Positions 5,316-63,340 of a stretch of 64,000 bases of DNA are shown here, piece after piece. The notes under the pieces are model-generated. The model did not search any database. It saw only the letters and a list, made by a program, of their open reading frames with translations, and was not told where the DNA came from. This stretch comes from Deltaproteobacteria bacterium (GTDB taxonomy: Bacteria > Desulfobacterota > Dissulfuribacteria > Dissulfuribacterales > QOAL01). The position numbers were made by a program, and so were the translations under genes. The stretch spans positions 4,379 to 68,378 of the forward strand of contig JAMOVK010000149.1 of NCBI GenBank assembly GCA_027067775.1, given 5' to 3'. Each line of letters starts with the position of its first letter. Within the stretch, counting starts at the first letter, position 1.

Positions 5316-5780
5316 CTAGATCTTTCCTGCCTTTTCCCGGCATTCTTTGCAAATGCCAATCACCTCCAACTTATGCCTGATGATTTTATAATCGAAACGT
5401 TTCCCTAGATCCTTTTCTATCTGGGCAATCCTGTTATCACTAAACTCCTCGATCTTTCTGCATGTCTGGCATCTCAAGTGACAGTGGTGCTCATGACCAA
5501 AGACATGCTCGTAGTGCATCTGGCCGTTTTCAAAAAAGACCTCTTCTATCAGGTCTGCCTTGATGAGAAGGGGTATCAGGCGGTATATAGAGGCCTTTGA
5601 AACCCTGAGCCCTTTCTGTCTGATGGATATATAAAGGGAGTCAACGTCAAAATGTTCCTGCGTAGAAATTATCTCCTTTATAATGGTTTCCCTCTCTGGA
5701 GTATACCTCATGCCCTGACGTTTGAGAAAATTCCTGAAAATCTCAAGCTCAGAGGATTTTTTATTCTTTTGGACACCCAT
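5316..5780 (-). CDS. fur: Fur family transcriptional regulator
   Basis: 154 aa. It has a winged-helix N-terminus and metal sites HEHHCHLRCQTCRKIEEF ... ICKEC. Confidence 0.85.
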   Translation of the reverse strand: MGVQKNKKSSELEIFRNFLKRQGMRYTPERETIIKEIISTQEHFDVDSLYISIRQKGLRVSKASIYRLIPLLIKADLIEEVFFENGQMHYEHVFGHEHHCHLRCQTCRKIEEFSDNRIAQIEKDLGKRFDYKIIRHKLEVIGICKECREKAGKI

Positions 5781-47211: not shown

Positions 47212-49497
47212 TCAAAGAAGTCTTTCAAGCTCCACCTTCACCTGTTGAATTACATTATTGGTTGTATTTGACGTGGACAATCTAAAAATTTTGGCTGTTG
47301 GATACCAGGATGATTCAGAGCCGTGAACAGGCCAGCACCAATGACTTTGACCCTTGATCAGGATCCATACAGGTATTCCCAAGCCCCCAGCCAGATGTAC
47401 TACAGGACAATCAATAGTGATTACCAGATCAAGCTGCGTAATAAAGGCCGCCATATGCGCAAGATTGACCATTTTACGATCTAGAGGTTCCATTCCACAT
47501 TCTCCAGCCATCTTCTCGTGGACAGGATTTGACAGGCTTTGAAGACCAAAAAAATCGATCCCTTCTAAACTTGTTAATGGAATAAAATCTTCTAGACCAA
47601 ATGGCTGGAATAATGAACTTTCATTAGACCAAAAAAGTCCGACCTTCAATTCCCCATGTCCTTTAATAGGGGAAACCGCCACCTCTGATGGCACCTTTAG
47701 GTAAGGTGGTCTTTCTCCTGCATCTGGAACCAAAGGGTCAAATATAGATTTAAGACATGGAAGTCTCAACAAAGGACAGTAAACATCAAACTCATGGTCA
47801 TGAATATTAAACGGCAACCGGGCCAAAGAAACTCCAGGAACCTCTTCCATAAGAACCTGGAGCGGTTCTGGTGATGCTATTATCAAATGTTCACAAAGTT
47901 GAGATACAACAGAAAAAAGCCTGGCTAAAACTATGGCGTCTTGAATGCTTTGCTCCAGATGGATCAGCAGTTTCTTCCTGCCAAGGGCCTCACCAGACCA
48001 GATGGGATTCAAAGAATTAAATGCCTGAAAACCGGCCGTTTTTCTCCGCCACTGATATTCTTTCCAGCCCTGGCGGAACCTTCCAAGGCGCAGTAAAAGC
48101 CTGCCTTTGGCATAGTGGGCTGCAGCATAACCCCTGTCTGCCTCTAGAGCCCTGTCATAAAATTCAAGTGCCCTGTTATACTGTTCAAGCTCTACAAAAC
48201 AGTTTCCAAGAAGCAGACAGGCACTGGCATTTTCTGGATTATCTCTGTAGACCTTTTCCAAGATGTCAACAGCCTCTTCCCAATTGCCAAGGGCTGCTAA
48301 CGTATCTCCAAGAATATATGCGGCCCTGGTGTTATGAGGAGCCATCTTGAGTAACACCTTTAGCTTCTCTGCAGCATCCCGCAGCTTTCCATCCCTACGA
48401 AGAACAATGGCCTCATTAATCCTTGCCTCATCCGGGTCCTGTTGGGCCAAATCCTTGAGAGCCTCCTTTGGCAAAGAATATGACGTTCTTACAAGTGGAT
48501 CAGCAACATCTAAAATTACAGGGTTCTTCCATGGCAAAATCTCAACTGCAAAAATCTCATGAACCCCTGCATCAAACTGCAACCACCCAAGAACATTGCC
48601 CTTTCTCAAATCTACCAACCAAATACCACAAAAACGTTCTGAAAAACGTTTTGTCAGCGGAAGTCCTGAAAATACTGCAGTCTCTCTGACCCTAGAAAGT
48701 CCAATCAGGGCATAAGGCCCTACGAATGATATCCCCCTGCAGAAACCAGGAACTTCAGCAACAGTTTCTGATTTGCCATCTTCAGGATTTACAGTGATGA
48801 TCTTGCCTGTACCAGACTCAAGTACATAGAGCTTACCATTATACCATCGGGGAGAATGTGGCATGGAAAGACCTCTGCGGATTATTCGACCAGTTTCTAT
48901 ATCCACCAGGATTCCTCCAGAGGTCTTTGTCTCTCTCCATCCTCCAGGTGTATCAGCCTCTCCAAGGGCTGTAACGTAAGCAGGCCTCCCATCTCGCATG
49001 GCTATACCATTTAGATGGCACCTGTCACTCAAGTCATAGGCGCTAATGAAAGGAGGCCTCCATCGTGGCACTACACTATGTTCATGGTCTAAAGTACACA
49101 GACAGGACATTCGCGTATTTAAAAACCACAGTTCCCCTTCACTATCAAAAGCCATTTCGTGAATATCTATGTCTCCAGTTATATGTAACCTTCGGGGAAT
49201 AAAACATGCATCGTGACAGGTGGCAGAATCTACCTTAGAGGCCACATCTGGCATATTAAAATAGTCCCAGATCTGATATCCGGTCCCTACGGATAGTCTT
49301 GCTCCATTTGCTGCCATGCCCATTGGTTTTGACATGGCCACAAAATGGGTATTAAGCACCCTACCAGGCCTGAGAAGTATTAGCCTGCCTGCCTGATATG
49401 TGGAAATCAAGACAGAAACCCCTGCCTTAAGCAGAAATTCATTAAAGACAGGGGTATATTTGCTAGAAAAATTTGCTTGAGAGGGATGATTAGCCAT
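47212..49497 (-). CDS. three-part fusion: TIGR03032/DUF4915-like N-terminal domain + TPR repeats + GT9-like (heptosyltransferase-fold) C-terminal domain
   Basis: The N-terminal ~340 aa (..ISTYQAGRL..., ..HEMAFD..G.LWF.NT..SCL.., ..DRCHLNG.A...G.P.YVTA.., ..[19 protein letters not shown]..) match my memory of the uncharacterised TIGR03032 family. The middle has TPR-like repeats (..[14 protein letters not shown]...). The C-terminus ..[28 protein letters not shown]....[10 protein letters not shown] has the GT9-like pattern. The ATG overlaps the stop of the upstream surface-protein gene (gATGGCTAA). Confidence 0.7.
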
Positions 49498-51817
49498 CCT
49501 CAGACATTTTCTTTTTCTGTCTGAAAAAGACTGCTCCCAGCAACATAAGGCCTATCATTGATATCTTTTTACCCAGACCAGATACGGTTGGCACGCCAAT
49601 AATTGCATTTGCCTCTGTTCTGTCCTCATTGCCTGGAGCCGTCGGGTCATCGCTCAGAACACTATGTTGTCGATCATCTGAGCCAATATTCCCATCGTCA
49701 TCCGCGTCCCAGTATCCTGTTGCCTGATTGTAGACCGATGTTACACCATCTCTTACTGTGGTTTTAAATGTAATAACTACTTCATTAGAGGCACTGTTTT
49801 CATCTGTTGCACCAGGATCGGGAGCTATTCTGCCCTCCCAGACAACCATATTGTTTGCAGCATCATATTCACACCGGGACGTAACCGACGCTCCCTGCGG
49901 AATGCATTGTAAACTTCCGCTAATATAAGTTAATTCTGGTTGGACAGGATCTTCTACAAGAACATGTTCAGCATCTGCGTTGCTGTTATTTATCCATACC
50001 ATTTTCCATTCTATTTCTGGCCAACCGGCAGGATCAACCACCTTGATTGCAAAAGGCGGATCAAATACCCGGGGTGCTCGATTGATTGTCAGGCTCACAC
50101 GGGCCGTATCGCAGTCTCCATTGGAATCACAGATCTGGTATTCTAGCTTGTCATCGCCAAAGTAGTCGGGATCAGGGGTGTATTCTATATAATCGTCAGT
50201 AGGATCGTCTGGCGTACCACTGTCTTTTACTTCTGCCGTACCGTGTTGAGGACCCGCGGTGATTGTAATGGTCCCGTTGGAAGCTCCATCTCCTCCAAAA
50301 TCATCGTTGGCCGTTACAGGTATATCTACAGGGGTATCCTCATCGGTAGACGCCACATCGTCGCTGGCAGAAGGCAGATCATTGATTGGCCTGATCGTCA
50401 GGCTCACATGGGCCGTATCGCAGTCTCCATTGGAATCACACAATCTATACTCAAAAACATCTTTGCCATTATAGTTGGCATCTGGCGTATAAGTGATGGT
50501 ATCGTCAGTAGGATCATCTGGTGTGCCTTTATCATTTACTACTGCCGTACCATGAGACGGGTTGGTGGTCACGCTGAGTTTCCCTCGTGGGCCATCCCCT
50601 GTAAAATCATTATTGAGGACGCTCACCTCAACTGGGGTATCCTCATCCGTCTGAGCAGTATCATCAGCAGCATTAGGTAGCTGGTTTTCAAAGGCTCCGA
50701 TATCACATGCAACCGTACCGTCTCCATTTCCATCTATCGGTCTTAAAACATCTCTCTGGTCTGTTGTTACACTAACAGGAGCCTTGGTACAGTTTCCTGC
50801 AGCGTCAATTGCATCAGAGCCAGGAAGAAGGGCATGAGTTTTAGTAAGACCTCCGTTGTCTCTAAGATTGGTATCAAGGTTTAGATTGCCACTTGTAGCT
50901 ACTCCATTGCAACTGGCGTCTCCAAACCAGTTATTGCCCATATCATAAATAGAATTATAATTCACGGGAGCACAGTTTCCAACTCCACCCGTATTTTCAG
51001 CTACTATCGAATTCCATATCTTTAGATAGTCTTCATTATATACACCACTTGCACTTTTTGAATCATTCCCGTTTGATTTATTATGGGTAATGGTTGAATG
51101 TATTATATAACCATAAACATCGTAGCCATTACTGACGCCTCCACCTTTTTGTGCCGTATTGCCTGAAACAGTGGAATTTATAAGCTTGAATAATCCAAAG
51201 GTATCTGTACCAATACCTCCTCCCGTCTGGGCCTCATTTCCAGTAATGGTTGAGCTAATGATAGTTAAAGAACTTCCATCATAATGACCAACACCTCCTC
51301 CAATCCAGTGTGCCGTATTACCGGTTACAGTACAATTTATTATTGTGGTGTTGCTCGAACCAGTATTCACAACACCACCACCTATATGGGCTGCACCACC
51401 TTTAATTGTCATATTGTCAAGTATAAGGTCTCCATTACTTTTGGTCGTAAAAATACGAAATTCTGACGCATTTGAATCTCTTTCTACAGTAGCCCCATTT
51501 CCCTGAATGGTGATCTGCGATGTAATGGCAGGAAGTTCGGAAGTAAGGGTAATTGTACTGTATCCTGGCAATACTATGGTGTCTGCACCATTACCGGCGA
51601 CACATCCTCCTGTGGCAGTATCGCTGTTGGCTGATGTAATTGCATCCGCCAAGGTACAGCTGGCATTGTCTACGGTAATAGTTGCAGCTGTTGTTGTGTT
51701 TGCCGCTGCCAGAGAAAAAGCCGCTGCTGCAAGCATTCCTTTGCCAACCTTGCCTAAAGATCTTCTCTTTTTTCTTCTTTTGACCTTTTTGCGCTTTAGC
51801 GACTCCCTTTTAGTCAT
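49490..51817 (-). CDS. large secreted surface protein: right-handed beta-helix (Pmp-repeat/choice-of-anchor-type) + 2 cadherin/Ig-like repeats + DUF11-like domain + C-terminal TM/basic sorting tail
   Basis: Start taken at ATG 51817, which has AAGGAG upstream; the track TTG start is at 51847. Signal peptide ..[17 protein letters not shown](V/I)..N beta-helix repeats (..[14 protein letters not shown].., ..[16 protein letters not shown].., ..[16 protein letters not shown]..). Two 103-aa repeats [27 protein letters not shown]-terminus [29 protein letters not shown]. Confidence 0.75.
50080..50700 (-). repeat. tandem ~309-bp (103-codon) intragenic repeat, two units
   Basis: tcaggctcaca(c/t)gggccgtatcgcagtctccattggaatcaca occurs at 50089 and again at 50398 (period 309 bp). 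The encoded units are the cadherin/Ig-like repeats of the surface protein. Confidence 0.85.
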
Positions 51818-52133
51818 TACTCCTTCTCCCTTCGTCCTGGCAAACAACGACCCAAAGGAGGTTGGTTTTTCAGAATTGCTGTCCCCTGAAAAGAAACAAT
51901 GTAGTACCCAAAAAGTAGTCGTTTTTGCCGTGAATAAAGCTATAGATCTTTATGTTACTTGCCCATCACTAAAATACCCACCGAGTTCTTTAAAAATAAA
52001 CAGCTCCTTTTTATGCGCAGCAAGAGCTTCATTCCTTAATATTCAAGGGTACCATTGTCAATATATAAATGGGAAAGGGGAAAATACAGCCATCTCCAAA
52101 GCAAACAATCCCAATAACAGTGAATAGAACTTT

Positions 52134-58323: not shown

Positions 58324-59202
58324 ATGAATCCGGAGACACGGCCTGAGATAAAACGGCAGCCACTTCTTCCCATTGACTGGAACAGTTCAGAGCTTCCTAC
58401 CATGCCTTCTATTGCCCAAAAGCTCATAACTCTACTTTGTCAGGAAGAGGTTGAAACCCAGCAGCTATGTGATCTTATAGCCAGTGATCCTGCCCTTACT
58501 GCAAGGCTTTTACAGATCTCAAACAGTGCCCTTTACTCCTTAAGCGCAGAGGTCACCTCTATCAGACAGGCCGTGGTTCTCCTTGGTCAGCAAGAGGTTA
58601 TACAGCTTGCCATAAGTAGCCTCCTTGCCAAGAGACTCCTTACCGTACCGGAGGCGATAAAATCCCATGCAGAAAAGCTTTGGAAACATCTTATGACAAC
58701 GGCTGTGCTTGCACAGGATTTTGAATTCGATGTGGAAGAACCCGATCTTTACACCCTGTCCATGCTTCACGATGTAGGCTGGCTGGTCCTGATGTCTCAG
58801 GCGCCTACCCTGTTTGTCTCTCTTTTTGAAGACAAAGGCCGGACGCTTAACGAACTTGAGGCAAGCTGGGGGGTTGATCATGAACTTTGGGGAGCAAAGC
58901 TGCTTGAAAAGTGGGGCCTTCCAGAGCCGTTTCAGATCACTGCCTACAGACATCACCATCCCTTTGCAGATACCGCTCCTCCCAAATACCTGCTGATTGT
59001 AAGCCTGGCAAACTTTCTTGCAAATTCCATGGGAAATTGTCTGTTAGACACTGAAGAACCAGAACCGTCTGATGCCCTTCTGGAACGGCTTGGCCTTGAC
59101 AGGCAGGCCCTTTACGAGATGGTCCAGTGGGCTATTTCTGAAAAAGACAAGATAGATATGAAGTGCGCGCTTGTTTCTGATATTACCCGCACATCAAGAT
59201 AG
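58324..59202 (+). CDS. HDOD domain-containing signalling protein
   Basis: ..LPTMPSIAQKLI.L......DLIASDPALTARLLQISNSALY.. and ..LHDVG.. form the HDOD pattern. Confidence 0.8.
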   Translation: MNPETRPEIKRQPLLPIDWNSSELPTMPSIAQKLITLLCQEEVETQQLCDLIASDPALTARLLQISNSALYSLSAEVTSIRQAVVLLGQQEVIQLAISSLLAKRLLTVPEAIKSHAEKLWKHLMTTAVLAQDFEFDVEEPDLYTLSMLHDVGWLVLMSQAPTLFVSLFEDKGRTLNELEASWGVDHELWGAKLLEKWGLPEPFQITAYRHHHPFADTAPPKYLLIVSLANFLANSMGNCLLDTEEPEPSDALLERLGLDRQALYEMVQWAISEKDKIDMKCALVSDITRTSR

Positions 59203-59373
59203 CCAATACCATATTAGAGGCCCTTTCCAACAGTCGTCATTCTTCACGATGAGCATGGAGAAAAAATGAAGAAGAATCTGGCAGACATGACTGCAACAAC
59301 CCATGCCATAAATGAATCACAAAAAGCCTTCTTCCTTCTCAAGGAATGCAGATTGGCAGGAGGTGACTTTCAC

Positions 59374-59504
59374 AGACTGGAAAGCAGGCCCAAGAGCTTC
59401 TAAGGTTCGCTTCGCTGAAACGCTCCAAAACCGCTCGCTCACGCTCGCTAAATGGAGGTTTCAGCCGCTTCGCTTCACCAAGAATCTCTAGGCCCTGTTC
59501 CCAA
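59374..59504. repeat. 131-bp inverted repeat, left copy (IR-L)
   Basis: The reverse complement of 59374-59504 equals 60440-60570 at 129/131 positions. The mismatches are at 59442/60502 and 59389/60555. Confidence 0.95.
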
Positions 59505-60439
59505 CGCCTGATGAAAAGCCACCATCCTGGCCAATCTGCAACCGATCTAGAACCTTTCTCCTGTAACATACAGCTAGAACCAGAAAATCAATGTGGGACA
59601 TCCGGTGCGGGCTTCAGAAATAACGGCCTTAATAACAACGCAATTTTAAGGCGCCACCTTTCACCCTCGATTGCATAAAACGGAGGCATTCTGGAAAGTA
59701 CAAGTAGTAACGGGCTGGTCCTCACCCCTAAATCACAATTTAACGGTATTGCTAAGACATTTAATAAAATCAAAAACATGGAACGGCAGGGTTAAGCCGC
59801 CGGCTTGAACCCATTGTTGGGCCTCTTAATTTTCTACCGTTTGTTTTGACAAGTTCCTTAATTCCCTTTGCACCCTTTCTGCCAAAAATTTGAGCTCATT
59901 CAATAGAGTCTCTGGCAACCTCAATGATATGGTCTTCACAGACGGCTTCAAATTGGGCAATACTAACCTCTCTCCACTGCTCCAATCTATGTACTCGGTG
60001 GAATCGTTTGATGACCAGAACTCTCTTTCTTGATCTCGTTGTCAAATATTGGTATCTCTTTTTTCCTCATCATAGTTTTCTGTATATCTCTCGTTCTTTT
60101 CGGCTCATTTCTCTTGCTGAAATAATCCGGATTTTTGTACCCCTGATGGTAAATACAATGAAAAGCGGCCTATTAAAAAATATCTGTTCACACTCGAAAT
60201 TACCGACCCGATGCCTTAACCGCATCGTCTATGTATTAAGTATATGCTCTATATACTTGACGCAAGAAAAGATTTATCCCTTTTAACTCAACTGCTCCAA
60301 CCTACTAAATTTTAAAGAATTATGCTGATTCACCACCATTTTAGGTCCAACTTGGGTAGTTGCCAGTTTTTAAAGGTAATGGTCTGAACCAACAGAATTA
60401 TCAGGTGGATAGGGCAAGGATAGGGGTTTGATTAGACAT

Positions 60440-60570
60440 TTGGGAACAGGGCCTAGAGATTCTTGGTGAAGCGAAGCGGCTGAAACCTCCATTTAGCGAG
60501 CATGAGCGAGCGGTTTTGGAGCGTTTCAGCGAAGCGAACCTTAGAAGCTCTTGGCCCTGCTTTCCAGTCT
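60440..60570. repeat. 131-bp inverted repeat, right copy (IR-R)
   Basis: ttgggaacagggcctagagattcttggtgaagcgaagcggctgaaacctccatttagcgagcatgagcgagcggttttggagcgtttcagcgaagcgaaccttagaagctcttggccctgctttccagtct. See IR-L. The unit is itself an imperfect palindrome. Confidence 0.95.
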
Positions 60571-61066
60571 AGTCAAGGCCCTTCCTTGCCCTTCCTTTTA
60601 CCCCGAAAAGACTGGGTGAACAGGATGTTATCCTGTCTGTCGTTTTCCTCTTAAATCATGTCATGCAGAAAGATTGTCTCTTGGTGAAGTCTCTTTATTG
60701 AAACAGGTCCAGGCCTAGGTCTAGTATTTCATTACGGAGTTACAGTAACAAGTTGAATCCACAAGTTCGTCATCTCTTTCATGTTCCCAGTTACAACCCC
60801 GACTAGACTATTTTGTTAGCCGTTTTCGATTTTACTTAATATCCTCAATATTCATATGAACCAGCAATCCAAGGCAGCCATTTTTTTAAAAAAATTCCTT
60901 TGATATGATCTTTTTTATTTAAGTATAAAACCAGTTTAACCGATGAATTACTTAACTTATGGGTCGTTAATAACATTATGATATTTTTGTATATTTATCC
61001 TTCACCCTGGCTGCAAGAGACGTGGGTATTGAAAACAGAAGAGGTCTTTTAGGAGGAAATTGGAAG

Positions 61067-63340
61067 ATGAGAAAAAAAAGAGCCCGATCAGCCTCATTGT
61101 CACTGTCACATCGACTTGCAATGGGCATTTCGTTTTTGATTATAATCATTTTAGGCATACAAGGCTTCTTTTCCTATAAAACTGCACTGGATAAAAAACA
61201 GGAAGAAATTGCAAAGGCACTTAAGGGAAAAGACGCTTTCATGATAGAAGCTGGAGACTTGTCCTCGGTACTCTTAAAGCAGGCAATTATAATTGCCAGC
61301 ATTCCTGAAATCAAGGAAGCACTACTTGATCGGGACAGACAGGGTCTCCTGTCCCTTGTAAACTCTATTGAGAATAAACTGGTAAAGGAAACCAAGGAAT
61401 CCATTAAAATTCACTTCCACATCCCTCCGGCAACATCCTTTTTGAGAAGCTGGAAACCTGATAAATTTGGAGACGATCTGTCATCCTTTCGTCCATCGGT
61501 AGTAAAAGTCCTGCAGACAGGACAACCGGTGAAAGGAATCGACTCCGGAAAAAACGGGCTTTCTATAAGAGGTATCGCCCCTATAAGAGCAGATGGCAAG
61601 ATAGTTGGAAGCGTAGAAATCATCAAAAATTGTGCCCAGGTAGCAGAAAAATTGGGCAAAATAAATGGAATAATCAATCACATTTTTATTCTCAAGAATC
61701 CTGGACGAAACGGAGGTAGCAAGAGGTTTACAGCTATCACAGACATAAATGAAGACCTTTTAAAACAGATAGACGAGGATTTCCTTGAAAAGGCCCTGAA
61801 GCAGGGCTGGGCCAAAAAAATGACAGGACGTCATGTCATAACTGCCGCTGCTATCTCTGACTTTTCTGGCAAACCGGTGGCAGTATACACGAGATATATT
61901 GATTTTACAAAGATAAACCAGGAATTGAGAAACAACCTGATTGAGCTTGGCCTTGTCCTGATCGCATTTCTGACAATTTCATTGATCACAGCAGTTGTTT
62001 TTTTAAGGAAAACACTGTCAAATCCGTTAACTAACTGTATTCAGACATTAATTTCGGCTTCGGAAGGGAACCTAAACAAAGCCGCAGTCCCCAAGGGAGC
62101 ACCGGAAATAAAAAACATTGCCACCGCCACCAATAACATTATTTACAACACCGGAATGTTACTAGAAACTCTCAAGTCACAGAGCGACAGTCTTAACATA
62201 CTAGGGGAACAGCTTAAAACCATCGTTAACAAAATCCATGATGGGGCAAAAGCCATAGACCATGCTGCCAATGCCATGGTGGACTCCTCTGCCAAAGCCT
62301 CTTCAACACTTTCCACTGTTGCCAGCGCATCCAATGAACTGAATGCCGCCACCAGTGAAATAGCTCAGAATGTTTCAGAGACAGCCAGGATAGCAAATGA
62401 GGCATCCGAAGAGGCGGAGAATACCAATGAACTGATGAAACATCTTGGAGAACAGTCCGAAAAGATCAAAGACATCATAACAGTCATAAACTCTATTGCT
62501 GAACAGACAAACCTGTTGGCACTCAATGCCACAATAGAGGCAGCCCGAGCTGGAGAGGCAGGAAAAGGTTTTGCCGTTGTAGCTAACGAGGTCAAAGAGC
62601 TTGCCAAGCAGACCGCCTCTGCAACCGATGAAATTACCGATATCATAAGCTCGTTAACAGATGGAATCTCAAATGCAGTCCTGGCTGTCGGCAACATCAC
62701 AGAGACAATAAACAAGGTCAATGACCTTGCAAACACCATAGCCAGTGCTGCTGAGGAACAAACTGCTACGGTTTCCGAAATAGATAACAGTATTACCGAT
62801 GGTGCAAGCAGCGTAGAAAATCTGGAACAAGAAGCAAGAACTCTTGCAAAAAGATCCAACGATTTCCTAACCTACTCTGGACGGATCAGGTTTGCTGAGG
62901 AATCCATAATTGATATTGGTAAAAGACTGGATTCTGTTACTGGTATGTACTCTGTAGAAAGACATGCCCTTGAACAGGCTGCAAAGGATGCTACAGACAA
63001 GGTTAAACTGATAGTAGCTTTCCTGGCTCACTTCAAATGGCTTGAGAATTACCGTGTGGCAATATTTACACGAAAAAAACCGGAAATCGAAAGAGACCCC
63101 AACAAATGCCTGCTTGGGCAATTCCTCAATGAACAGGCAGACCTTCTAAATGTCATTACAAGTTCAGAACTGACAGAAGCCCGAACCATTCATAATGAAA
63201 TCCATAAAAGTATTGACTACATGGAAAAAATGATAGACAGCGATGCTGAAGACCTGGAACTGGTTAACGAATTTGATTCAAGGGTGACAAGCAAATTGCA
63301 TCGACTTATAGAACTCATAGGCAAGGCTATAAACAACTAG
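61067..63340 (+). CDS. methyl-accepting chemotaxis protein: periplasmic Cache-type sensor + MA signalling domain + C-terminal CZB (zinc-binding) domain
   Basis: Start at ATG 61067 with GGAGGA upstream; the track GTG start is at 61022. Cache_3/Cache_2-like motif [30 protein letters not shown] domain [36 protein letters not shown]-terminal AHFKW..(x)..[17 protein letters not shown] is the CZB pattern. Confidence 0.9.

What the first reader, a model, noticed from the sequence alone, without database searches (positions are those of the whole stretch)
60440..60570. Each 131-nt repeat core folds (by eye) into a long three-helix hairpin: candidate structured RNA or MITE-like unit
The following uses IR-R numbering 1-131. 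Helix 1 pairs nt 2-14 with 114-127, about 12 bp with one bulge (GGGAACAGGGCC / GGCCCTGcTTTCC). Helix 2 pairs nt 16-27 with 100-112 (AGAGATTCTtGG / CCttAGAAGCTCT). Next comes a symmetric purine-rich internal loop in which both strands read GAAGCGAAGCG / GCGAAGCGAA. Helix 3 pairs nt 40-51 with 79-91 (GCTGAAACCTCC / GGAGcGTTTCAGC). It is capped by a ~27-nt loop containing the direct repeat AGCGAGC-ATG-AGCGAGC. High conservation of exactly this unit, while both flanks have diverged, suggests constraint or gene conversion on the hairpin itself. One reading frame is stop-free through the unit (..LEILGEAKRLKPPFSE(R/H)ERAVLERFSEANLRS..). Both differences between the copies are non-synonymous in that frame, and the right copy has no start codon, so I favour a non-coding role.
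Basis: seen in the sequence. Interest (0 to 1): 0.6.

Follow-up and report, generated by a model that had tools for sequence, protein, structure and literature searches.

The report
Dispersed giant-hairpin DNA repeat family
The flagged 131 bases are the inner part of a ~190-base self-pairing, non-coding repeat scattered between genes in one uncultured sulfate-reducer lineage; it is most likely a small parasitic mobile element, a new family of a familiar kind, not a protein or a known RNA gene.

Summary
The hairpin is real: 60440-60570 folds at -63.4 kcal/mol (z -5.7). It is only the inner two thirds of a 189-nt hairpin, 60407-60595 (-107.9 kcal/mol, z -10.3). Its inverted twin lies in a second ~190-nt hairpin, 59350-59537. 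The family has 18 units at about 12 intergenic loci in two metagenomes, in two subtypes (A, B). They share two near-invariant 27-nt blocks but differ in their outer and apical stems. Pairing is kept across subtypes: 94.8% of cells are paired, and 25 of 72 pairs changed on both sides. Units usually sit as an inverted A...B pair around a conserved spacer, with a conserved tail. In the window they also bracket a decayed brnT/brnA toxin-antitoxin pair. The "98% core with diverged flanks" is a gene-conversion tract. The left unit has an A-type outer stem (98% to other A units) and a core copied from the neighbouring B unit (98.4%, against about 72% to A cores). There was no hit in Rfam, GTDB genomes, plasmids, phages or viral contigs, and no protein family exists for the open frame. 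Three relatives have about 110 nt at this site. Best reading: a lineage-specific, non-autonomous foldback repeat, MITE/REPIN-like. Its mobilising enzyme, exact ends and any RNA role are untested.

The parts
59350..59537 (-). Left hairpin unit. It is a mosaic of an A-type outer stem and a B-type core. Its sense orientation is the - strand.
   Evidence: CM hit at 164 bits, E 4.9e-35. Fold -97.8 kcal/mol, z -7.19. Outer stem matches A units of other loci at 59/60; core matches the neighbouring B unit at 127/129 and A cores at about 72%.
59374..59504 (-). Inverted copy of the flagged 131-nt core, read here as a gene-conversion tract copied from the right-hand unit.
   Evidence: 131 nt at 98.5% to 60440-60570. 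The B-type sequence runs 5 nt past the conserved block on one side only (CCAGTCT instead of CCTGCCT) and creates a G-T wobble.
59538..59800 (.). Spacer S, left part. It is conserved next to A units in L003/L012, L008, L009 and L013, and no coding signal was found.
   Evidence: Alignment A1. Identity is 57-77% between loci, lower than for the hairpins. Pfam found nothing. No protein homologue for the stop-free translation of the equivalent spacer in L003.
59801..60348 (-). Cargo segment present only at this locus: decayed brnA (about 59826-60068, frameshifted with an internal deletion) and brnT (60070-60225, C-terminal third only), with a terminator-like hairpin at 59782-59801.
   Evidence: Pfam CopG_antitoxin 6.1e-07 and BrnT_toxin 1.8e-08, both partial profile matches. 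Three-frame translations. Terminator scan. Absent from the other loci.
60349..60406 (.). Spacer S, right part. It is conserved to the left of B units in all loci, including the otherwise solo L007 copy.
   Evidence: Alignment A2 and sequences.
60407..60595 (+). Right hairpin unit, B type, 189 nt. Its sense orientation is the + strand. It contains the flagged 60440-60570.
   Evidence: CM hit at 225 bits. Fold -107.9 kcal/mol, z -10.25. Eight further B units in other loci are 89-95% identical.
60596..60755 (+). Tail T, a conserved non-coding stretch that follows B units in 6-8 loci. Its right limit is approximate.
   Evidence: Alignments. A promoter-like TTGAAA-N18-TAGTAT at 60698-60727 is a consensus match only.

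Best explanation
The flagged sequence is part of a lineage-specific family of non-coding, hairpin-forming interspersed repeats in an uncultured Desulfobacterales-type bacterium. I read it as a non-autonomous selfish element of the MITE/REPIN kind. Each unit is a ~190-nt imperfect palindrome. Two near-invariant 27-nt blocks, TTGGGAACAGGGCCTAGAGATTCTTGG and CCTTAGAAGCTCTTGGCCCTGCTTTCC, pair with fixed imperfections: T.T and A.G mismatches, a G.T pair and a bulged C. Around them, an outer stem and an apical stem differ between two subtypes (A, B) while keeping their pairing. Units occur mostly as an inverted A...B pair around a conserved spacer and with a tail, giving a 0.9-kb mosaic. At the window locus this mosaic also holds a decayed brnT/brnA pair, and it lies in an intergenic gap that is about 110 nt in three relatives that keep the gene order. 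The near-identity of the two 131-nt cores is a recent gene conversion from the B unit into the A unit 0.9 kb away. Shown: the repeat family, its hairpins, pair-preserving divergence, intergenic dispersal, the mosaic left unit, and absence from relatives' loci and from databases. Inferred: the conserved paired blocks are the recognition site of a trans-acting enzyme that acts on the folded single strand, as proposed for REPIN/RAYT, and the variable stems serve only as scaffold. I give the single-strand mechanism about 0.3. Side effects on neighbouring transcripts (termination, RNase III or exonuclease barriers) are likely but secondary.
For: There are 18 units at about 12 loci in two metagenomes: ENA ERZ27262658 (window, L002, L003) and JGI Ga0256835 (L004-L014). 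All are intergenic, in every gene configuration. Contigs L005, L010 and L011 end inside units, as expected of multi-copy repeats. Every full unit folds into one hairpin of about -95 to -110 kcal/mol (z -10.25). On the CM alignment 94.8% of cells are paired. 25 of 72 pairs changed on both sides. 0 of 500 shuffles reached this, and slid controls gave 2-6 such pairs. Both arms also carry matched indels in L002 and in L004/L014. The hairpins are better conserved than the spacer between them: B units 89-95% against S 57-77%. The mosaic structure of the left unit is shown. Truncated and deleted copies (L004, L006, L008, L009) have junctions at short direct repeats. Relatives L018 and L026 have about 105-110 nt between the HDOD and MCP genes, L019 is also short, and none of the relatives' loci holds a unit. 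There is no Rfam family. No protein family exists for the open frame. No match was found in GTDB species genomes, plasmids, phages or viral contigs. REPINs show the same logic of two invariant blocks, a spacer that needs only to pair, and common compensatory changes (PMC3116915, read).
Against: No transposase, RAYT or recombinase was found next to any unit or among the small ORFs tested in the window. No target-site duplication or exact end could be defined, because no sufficiently close empty site is available. The outermost ends of the mosaic are not inverted repeats of each other. The invariant blocks lie in the middle of the hairpin, not at its tips as in classical MITEs. The copy number seen (18 units) is low compared with REP or ERIC families, although only fragments of the genome were searchable. 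The fixed mismatches and the purine-rich internal loops on one strand would also fit a functional RNA.
Confidence: 0.55

Rival explanations
1. The hairpin is a functional structured RNA. It could be cis-acting (terminator, transcript stabiliser, RNase III site) or a small RNA, kept by selection on the RNA fold; the repeats would then be multiple gene copies or regulatory modules.
For: Folding is very strong. Divergence preserves pairs. All 18 units fold better in one orientation than in the reverse complement, by 4-23 kcal/mol. The imperfections are of RNA-tolerated kinds on that strand: G.U at 15 pair positions (49 cells) against A.C at 8 (14 cells), plus A.G and purine-rich symmetric loops. 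T.T, A.G and the bulged C are invariant across subtypes. Many units lie just beyond 3' ends of genes.
Against: No Rfam match. Orientation relative to neighbouring genes is inconsistent, and the two units of a pair face opposite ways. Promoter-like sites are at the chance level. Private recent changes show only a weak G.T over A.C excess, about 11:7. Matched multi-base indels in both arms and the A/B conversion point to DNA-level copying. Truncated and deleted copies are tolerated. No expression data exist.
Confidence: 0.15
2. The mobile unit is the whole A-spacer-B(-tail) mosaic. It would be a passenger-carrying cassette whose two ~190-bp hairpin modules act as long terminal inverted repeats, like a mobile insertion cassette or MITE-flanked composite. 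The window copy would keep remnants of the original brnTA cargo, and the 0.9-kb form would be a deletion derivative that went on spreading.
For: A and B are homologous and always inverted relative to each other. The same spacer junction, ATGGAAC|TTGGG, is found at four different loci: L003/L012, L008, L009 and L013. The window cargo sits exactly at that junction, flanked by AAC/AAC. A different internal segment (S') lies between A and B in L004 and L014. Toxin-antitoxin pairs are typical passengers of mobile DNA (general knowledge).
Against: The tail T lies outside B and has no counterpart beyond A, so the extreme ends are not inverted repeats. A B unit without an A partner occurs in L006 and L007, and an A unit without B in L002. 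No TSD was found. The TA cargo is seen at one locus only, so it may equally be a later insertion.
Confidence: 0.25
3. The two inverted 131-147-bp repeats are the arms of an invertible DNA switch that flips the 0.9-kb segment between the HDOD and MCP genes.
For: Near-identical inverted repeats flank a segment that contains promoter-like sites next to a chemoreceptor gene. Gene conversion between the arms shows that they recombine.
Against: No recombinase gene is nearby. An independent contig from the same sample has the same orientation (L001/L027). In other loci the A and B cores are only about 72% alike. The same units occur singly elsewhere.
Confidence: 0.03
4. The units are integron attC sites bounding a toxin-antitoxin gene cassette.
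For: They are imperfect palindromes of attC-like size, with fixed extrahelical features, flanking a TA remnant.
Against: No RYYYAAC / GTTRRRY core sites are present; the ends read TTGGGAAC and GTTCCCAA. The two units are inverted rather than direct. The copies are dispersed at about 12 unrelated loci rather than in one array, and no intI is nearby.
Confidence: 0.02

Closest known systems
REPINs (REP doublets forming hairpins) mobilised by RAYT Y1/HUH transposases
   Same: Non-coding, intergenic and lineage-restricted. Two highly conserved blocks in inverted orientation are separated by a part whose main constraint is to pair. Compensatory changes are common. The hairpin is predicted in ssDNA or mRNA (PMC3116915; compare).
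   Different: The units here are about 190 nt, against roughly 80-110 nt. The conserved blocks contain no short REP palindrome. An extra 30-bp outer stem lies outside the conserved blocks. No RAYT was found. Only 18 copies were seen so far.
Bacterial MITE-type palindromic repeats such as ERIC (about 127 bp) and Neisseria Correia elements (about 100-155 bp) (from my own knowledge)
   Same: Whole-element imperfect palindromes, dispersed in intergenic DNA, often near gene ends. They can fold in transcripts and affect mRNA processing. Subfamilies and internally deleted variants exist.
   Different: There is no sequence similarity. The conserved blocks are internal rather than terminal. No TSD (such as TA for Correia) or parent IS was identified. 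Units are longer and arranged in A/B pairs with fixed linkers.
BIMEs (bacterial interspersed mosaic elements of E. coli) (from my own knowledge)
   Same: Mosaic architecture: two types of palindromic unit in alternating orientation, joined by conserved linker motifs and flanked by tail motifs.
   Different: BIME palindromic units are about 35 nt; these are about 190 nt. The linkers here are 280-360 nt, and one holds a TA remnant.
Mobile insertion cassettes and MITE-flanked composite structures (from my own knowledge)
   Same: Two related inverted end modules bracket variable non-transposase cargo, here a brnTA remnant or the spacer variants S and S'.
   Different: The ends are themselves long hairpins. 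An extra tail lies outside one end. No transposition footprints were demonstrated.
Integron attC sites
   Same: Imperfect palindromes thought to act as folded single strands with fixed extrahelical features, and often flanking TA cassettes.
   Different: The core-site motifs are absent, the orientation is inverted, and the copies are dispersed without an integrase.

Membership tests
Rfam structured RNA families | Covariance-model match at or near a family's gathering score | tested here: not met
   cmscan with permissive E-values over window 58500-61500, L003 9300-10400 and L014 6050-7150 gave only chance-level hits far below gathering scores, none on the units.
REPIN / REP-RAYT | [quoted passage not shown] | tested here: met
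   The 27-nt blocks are near-invariant in 17 distinct units. The apical and outer stems covary: 25 of 72 pairs changed on both sides and 94.8% of cells are paired.
REPIN / REP-RAYT | Each conserved block contains a short (about 20-35 nt) REP palindrome | tested here: not met
   Reading the 27-nt blocks shows no internal palindrome beyond 3 bp.
REPIN / REP-RAYT | A single-copy RAYT (Y1 transposase) gene flanked by the repeats in the same genome | not testable with these tools
   Only the 64-kb window and about 180 kb of related contigs are available. No Y1_Tnp domain was found among the 10 window ORFs scanned, and none of the genes called beside the units carries a transposase Pfam domain. The whole genome could not be searched.
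REPIN / REP-RAYT | High copy number (tens to hundreds) in extragenic space | tested here: inconclusive
   18 units, all extragenic, but from fragmentary assemblies in which contigs break at the repeats.
Classical MITE (DDE transposase-dependent) | Terminal inverted repeats at the very ends of the element | tested here: inconclusive
   The whole unit is an inverted repeat, but the best conserved blocks are internal and the tips (outer stems) differ between subtypes. The mosaic's extreme ends are not inverted repeats.
Classical MITE (DDE transposase-dependent) | Target-site duplication flanking each insertion | tested here: inconclusive
   Flanks of nine A ends and eight B/T ends show no shared direct repeat. 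Exact ends cannot be set without an empty site, and relatives' intergenic DNA is too diverged.
Classical MITE (DDE transposase-dependent) | A parent IS with matching ends | tested here: not met
   None in the window or the loci held. The IS21 fragment in L002 has unrelated ends. There were no matches in plasmids, phages, viral contigs or GTDB genomes.
Integron attC | R''/R' core sites RYYYAAC ... GTTRRRY, direct orientation in an array next to intI | tested here: not met
   The ends read TTGGGAAC ... GTTCCCAA-type sequences. Units are inverted and dispersed, with no integrase nearby.
Protein-coding gene | Homologues with a conserved reading frame | tested here: not met
   Only three spurious ORFs over other copies were found. 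Indels between copies break the frame. Pfam found nothing.

The most novel reading that the evidence does not exclude
The ~190-nt hairpin could be a new class of structured single-stranded element. Its conserved, deliberately imperfect central duplex (fixed T.T, A.G, G.U and a bulged C) would be recognised by a dedicated, so far unseen protein. One option is a new hairpin-dependent mobilisation system that moves cargo such as toxin-antitoxin genes between paired hairpin ends. Another is a new family of long-hairpin RNAs transcribed outward from the spacer. The strand asymmetry of all 18 units and the conservation of the imperfections across both subtypes are not excluded by anything found here.
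Probability: 0.12. Interest if true: 0.7.

Novelty: new member of a known kind. Interest (0 to 1): 0.35.

Why it matters
Repeats of this kind break metagenome assemblies, drive local rearrangements and can alter expression of neighbouring genes. Conversion and microhomology deletions are visible here. This family adds a large, well-structured example from a poorly studied, uncultured sulfate-reducer lineage. Its architecture is clean enough to look for the partner enzyme once a complete genome exists: invariant paired blocks, covarying stems, and A/B pairs around cargo. It does not reflect selection on a 131-nt RNA.

Tried and rejected
- Rfam on three loci: nothing.
- Protein reading of the open frame: only three spurious ORFs over other copies, from both the word-indexed and the exhaustive HMMER search. 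Other frames gave nothing. A stop-free translation of the spacer also gave nothing.
- Exact-pattern scan of 185,579 GTDB species genomes for the conserved 21-mer: 0 hits.
- IMG/VR scans with two conserved blocks: 0 hits.
- blastn against plasmids and phages: no match.
- Empty-site search through the orthologous HDOD-MCP locus: relatives lack the element, but their intergenic DNA is too diverged to set exact ends or a TSD.
- Look-up of the exact HDOD and MCP proteins: only the same contig was returned, so no insertion polymorphism could be seen.
- A plain MAFFT + RNAalifold run on A and B units together misaligned the variable stems and saw only the invariant middle helix. It was replaced by a CM-guided alignment.
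- Idea that the 131-nt core is itself a MITE inserted into two older palindromes: rejected. No core occurs outside an A or B outer stem. No empty outer stem exists; L008 is a microhomology deletion. The B-type tract in the left unit is asymmetric.
- Integron attC and invertible-switch readings: rejected (see rivals).
- Search for a nearby transposase among small window ORFs: only housekeeping domains.
- Sigma-70 promoter scan: at chance level.

Full report
**1. Checking the observation**

- The window holds one long inverted repeat: arms 59358-59504 and 60440-60586, 147 nt, 94% complementary, 935 nt apart.
- Within it, 131 nt (59374-59504 against 60440-60570) differ at only two positions (98.5%).
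It has three helices, purine-rich symmetric internal loops and an apical loop with the AGCGAGC repeat.
- As RNA the + strand gives -63.4 kcal/mol, z -5.69, with no shuffle as good. The - strand gives -53.1 kcal/mol, z -4.81.
- The open frame and the two non-synonymous differences are also as stated.
Pairing continues for about 30 bp on each side.
- The right unit is a 189-nt hairpin at 60407-60595: -107.9 kcal/mol, z -10.25 as RNA and -53.5 kcal/mol, z -9.76 as DNA.
- The left unit is 59350-59537 on the - strand: -97.8 kcal/mol, z -7.19.

**2. Surroundings**

- The repeats lie in a 1.8-kb gap between an HDOD-domain gene (58324-59202) and a methyl-accepting chemotaxis protein gene (from 61022 or 61121).
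- Between the two units, on the - strand, are the remains of a type II toxin-antitoxin pair.
- The BrnT match covers only the last third of the Pfam profile (1.8e-08). The CopG/BrnA match is partial (6.1e-07). Stops, a frameshift and an internal deletion are visible in the three-frame translations.
- Rfam finds nothing on or near the units.

**3. Other copies**

- A protein search with the spurious 76-aa ORF over the left unit returned three equally spurious ORFs. An exhaustive HMMER search of 1.84 billion representatives found the same three and nothing else.
- Their contigs carry further copies: two from the window's own ENA sample and one from a JGI metagenome.
- A 21-mer from the best conserved block found ten more contigs, all in that JGI metagenome.
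- The same 21-mer found none in 185,579 GTDB species genomes and none in IMG/VR. The plasmid and phage collections have no similar DNA.
- A covariance model built from six full B units finds 18 units in the sense orientation, with E from 6e-49 to 2e-13.
- The model finds no further unit in the 64-kb window. It finds none in twelve loci from related MAGs.
- All copies are intergenic, between genes in every relative orientation and often just past a gene's 3' end. Three contigs end inside a unit.

**4. Anatomy of the family**

- Units fall into two subtypes, nine A and nine B.
- Both share two near-invariant 27-nt blocks: TTGGGAACAGGGCCTAGAGATTCTTGG and CCTTAGAAGCTCTTGGCCCTGCTTTCC.
- These blocks pair with the same imperfections in every copy: a G.T pair, T.T and A.G oppositions and a bulged C.
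- Outside the blocks lies an outer stem of about 30 bp, and inside them an apical stem-loop. Both are recognisably homologous between A and B but differ at many positions.
- Units normally occur as a mosaic: A in reverse orientation, a spacer S of about 280 nt, B, and a tail T of about 160 nt. This is seen in the window, L003/L012 and L013. L014 and L004 have an alternative spacer S'. L008 and L009 have the B hairpin deleted.
- A B unit without an A partner, with part of S, occurs in L006 and L007. A diverged A unit without B occurs in L002.
- Deleted variants have junctions at short direct repeats: CAAGG in L008 and GAAGCGAA in L004.
- The spacer shows no coding signal.
- The window's toxin-antitoxin segment (59801-60348) is unique to this locus. 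It sits exactly where the other mosaics have the junction ATGGAAC|TTGGG, inside a small bidirectional terminator-like hairpin.

**5. Why the 131-nt core is so sharply conserved**

- On the CM alignment, the window's left unit has an outer stem identical to A units of other loci at 59 of 60 positions. That stem is only 56% like the stem of its neighbour B.
- Its core is 127/129 identical to the neighbouring B unit. That is closer than to any other B core (88-97%) and far from A cores (about 72%).
- The B-type tract overruns the conserved block by 5 nt on one side only and creates a G-T wobble there.
- This is the signature of a recent gene conversion from the B unit into the A unit 0.9 kb away.
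- It is not selection on a 131-nt entity, and it is not two insertions of a 131-nt MITE.

**6. Is the hairpin maintained?**

- On the CM-guided alignment, 94.8% of the 1112 pair cells are standard pairs.
- 25 of 72 pairs carry changes on both sides, 17 of them in the outer helix.
- No shuffle out of 500 reaches the observed values, and sliding the partners by 1-3 columns gives only 2-6 such pairs.
- One pair runs U:G, U:A and C:G among B units.
- Caveats apply. The alignment is fitted to the model. Most double changes trace to the single A/B split. For a DNA palindrome, concerted evolution of the two arms gives the same picture.
- Matched multi-base indels in both arms (L002; L004/L014) suggest that arm-to-arm copying does occur.
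- Against pure homogenisation, the imperfections of the central duplex are invariant in all copies.
- The hairpins are more conserved between loci (B units 89-95%) than the spacer beside them (57-77%).

**7. Which strand, RNA or DNA?**

- All 18 units fold better in one orientation than as reverse complement, by 4-23 kcal/mol.
- On that strand the non-Watson-Crick oppositions are mostly G.T, A.G and G.G rather than A.C, C.T and C.C. G.T occurs at 15 pair positions against 8 for A.C.
- The excess among private, recent changes is weak, about 11:7, so this is a hint and not a proof of a single-stranded functional form.
- The two units of a mosaic face outward on opposite strands, and orientation relative to flanking genes is not consistent.
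- Promoter-like matches are at the chance level.
- No expression data can be consulted with these tools.

**8. Insertion status**

- Related MAGs with HDOD proteins 61-86% identical are labelled uncultured Desulfobacterales, Deltaproteobacteria or Thermodesulfobacteriota.
- L018 and L026 keep HDOD directly followed by the chemoreceptor gene, with about 105-110 nt between them. L019 also has a short gap.
- None of the relatives' loci contains a unit.
- The 1.4-kb mosaic is therefore an addition in the window's lineage.
- The flanks are too diverged to read exact ends or a target-site duplication. Look-ups of the exact flanking proteins returned only the same contig.

**9. Interpretation**

- The best-supported reading is a lineage-specific family of non-coding, non-autonomous foldback repeats.
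- Its logic matches that described for REPINs: two invariant blocks in inverted orientation, an intervening part that needs only to pair, common compensatory changes, and a hairpin in ssDNA or mRNA (PMC3116915).
- It is not a REPIN by membership. The units are twice as long, lack REP palindromes and have an extra outer stem, and no RAYT was seen.
- It is not a demonstrated MITE, since no TSD, parent IS or terminal conserved blocks were found.
- The mosaic of two unit types with fixed linkers recalls BIMEs on a larger scale. The A...B pair around variable cargo recalls mobile insertion cassettes.
- I infer that the conserved imperfect duplex is a protein recognition module and that the other stems are scaffold. 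This step is not shown.
- A functional RNA remains possible (about 0.15). An invertible switch and an integron attC reading are unlikely. A coding reading is excluded for practical purposes.

**10. Verdict**

- The thing is a new family of a known kind of bacterial repeat, of moderate interest.
- Its chief open question is which enzyme copies it, and whether the folded form that matters is DNA or RNA.

Noticed in passing
window 59826-60225 (- strand): Decayed brnT/brnA toxin-antitoxin pair between the two hairpin units. BrnT keeps only its C-terminal third. BrnA is frameshifted and has an internal deletion. The segment 59801-60348 is absent from all other copies of the mosaic.
   Followed up: yes
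window 50083-50554: Two direct-repeat families with a 309-nt period (73-96% identity), lying inside a large ORF (49490-51847, - strand) whose product carries Cadherin/Big_9-type domains in the L001 gene table. These are probably tandem domain repeats.
   Followed up: no
L008 about 5600-5640; L009 about 2400-2440; L004 346-471: Copies in which the B hairpin, or its apex, has been deleted, with junctions at short direct repeats (CAAGG in L008, GAAGCGAA in L004). This is typical instability of long palindromes.
   Followed up: partly
L003 9772-9788 (equivalent point in window: 59800/60349): The spacer S contains a small hairpin, GGAACTTGGGTGGTTCC, with T runs on both strands, so it resembles a bidirectional terminator. 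In the window the toxin-antitoxin segment is located exactly at this point, flanked by AAC on both sides.
   Followed up: partly
window 60596-60755: A conserved tail T of about 160 nt follows B units in 6-8 loci. It contains CATGCAGAAAGATTG, which resembles the AATGCAGATTGG at the outer end of A units. It also holds a small GTTAC...GTAAC palindrome and a promoter-like TTGAAA-N18-TAGTAT facing the chemoreceptor gene. Its function is unknown.
   Followed up: partly
L002 1-170 and 427-606: The contig starts with the 3' end of an IS21-type istB gene, next to the most diverged A unit. That unit has matched 3-nt insertions and a matched T-to-A change in both arms of its outer stem.
   Followed up: partly
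L003 10972-11076 and 11252-12112: Two + strand genes are called here: a 34-residue product and a 286-residue product with release-factor domains (PCRF, RF-1). I read this as prfB split by its well-known programmed +1 frameshift (recalled, not tested). It lies about 0.8 kb downstream of the repeat mosaic.
   Followed up: no
L015 8858-9790: In the closest relative (HDOD protein 86% identical), the gene after HDOD is a different ORF on the opposite strand rather than the chemoreceptor. Synteny at this junction is therefore variable even without the repeat.
   Followed up: no
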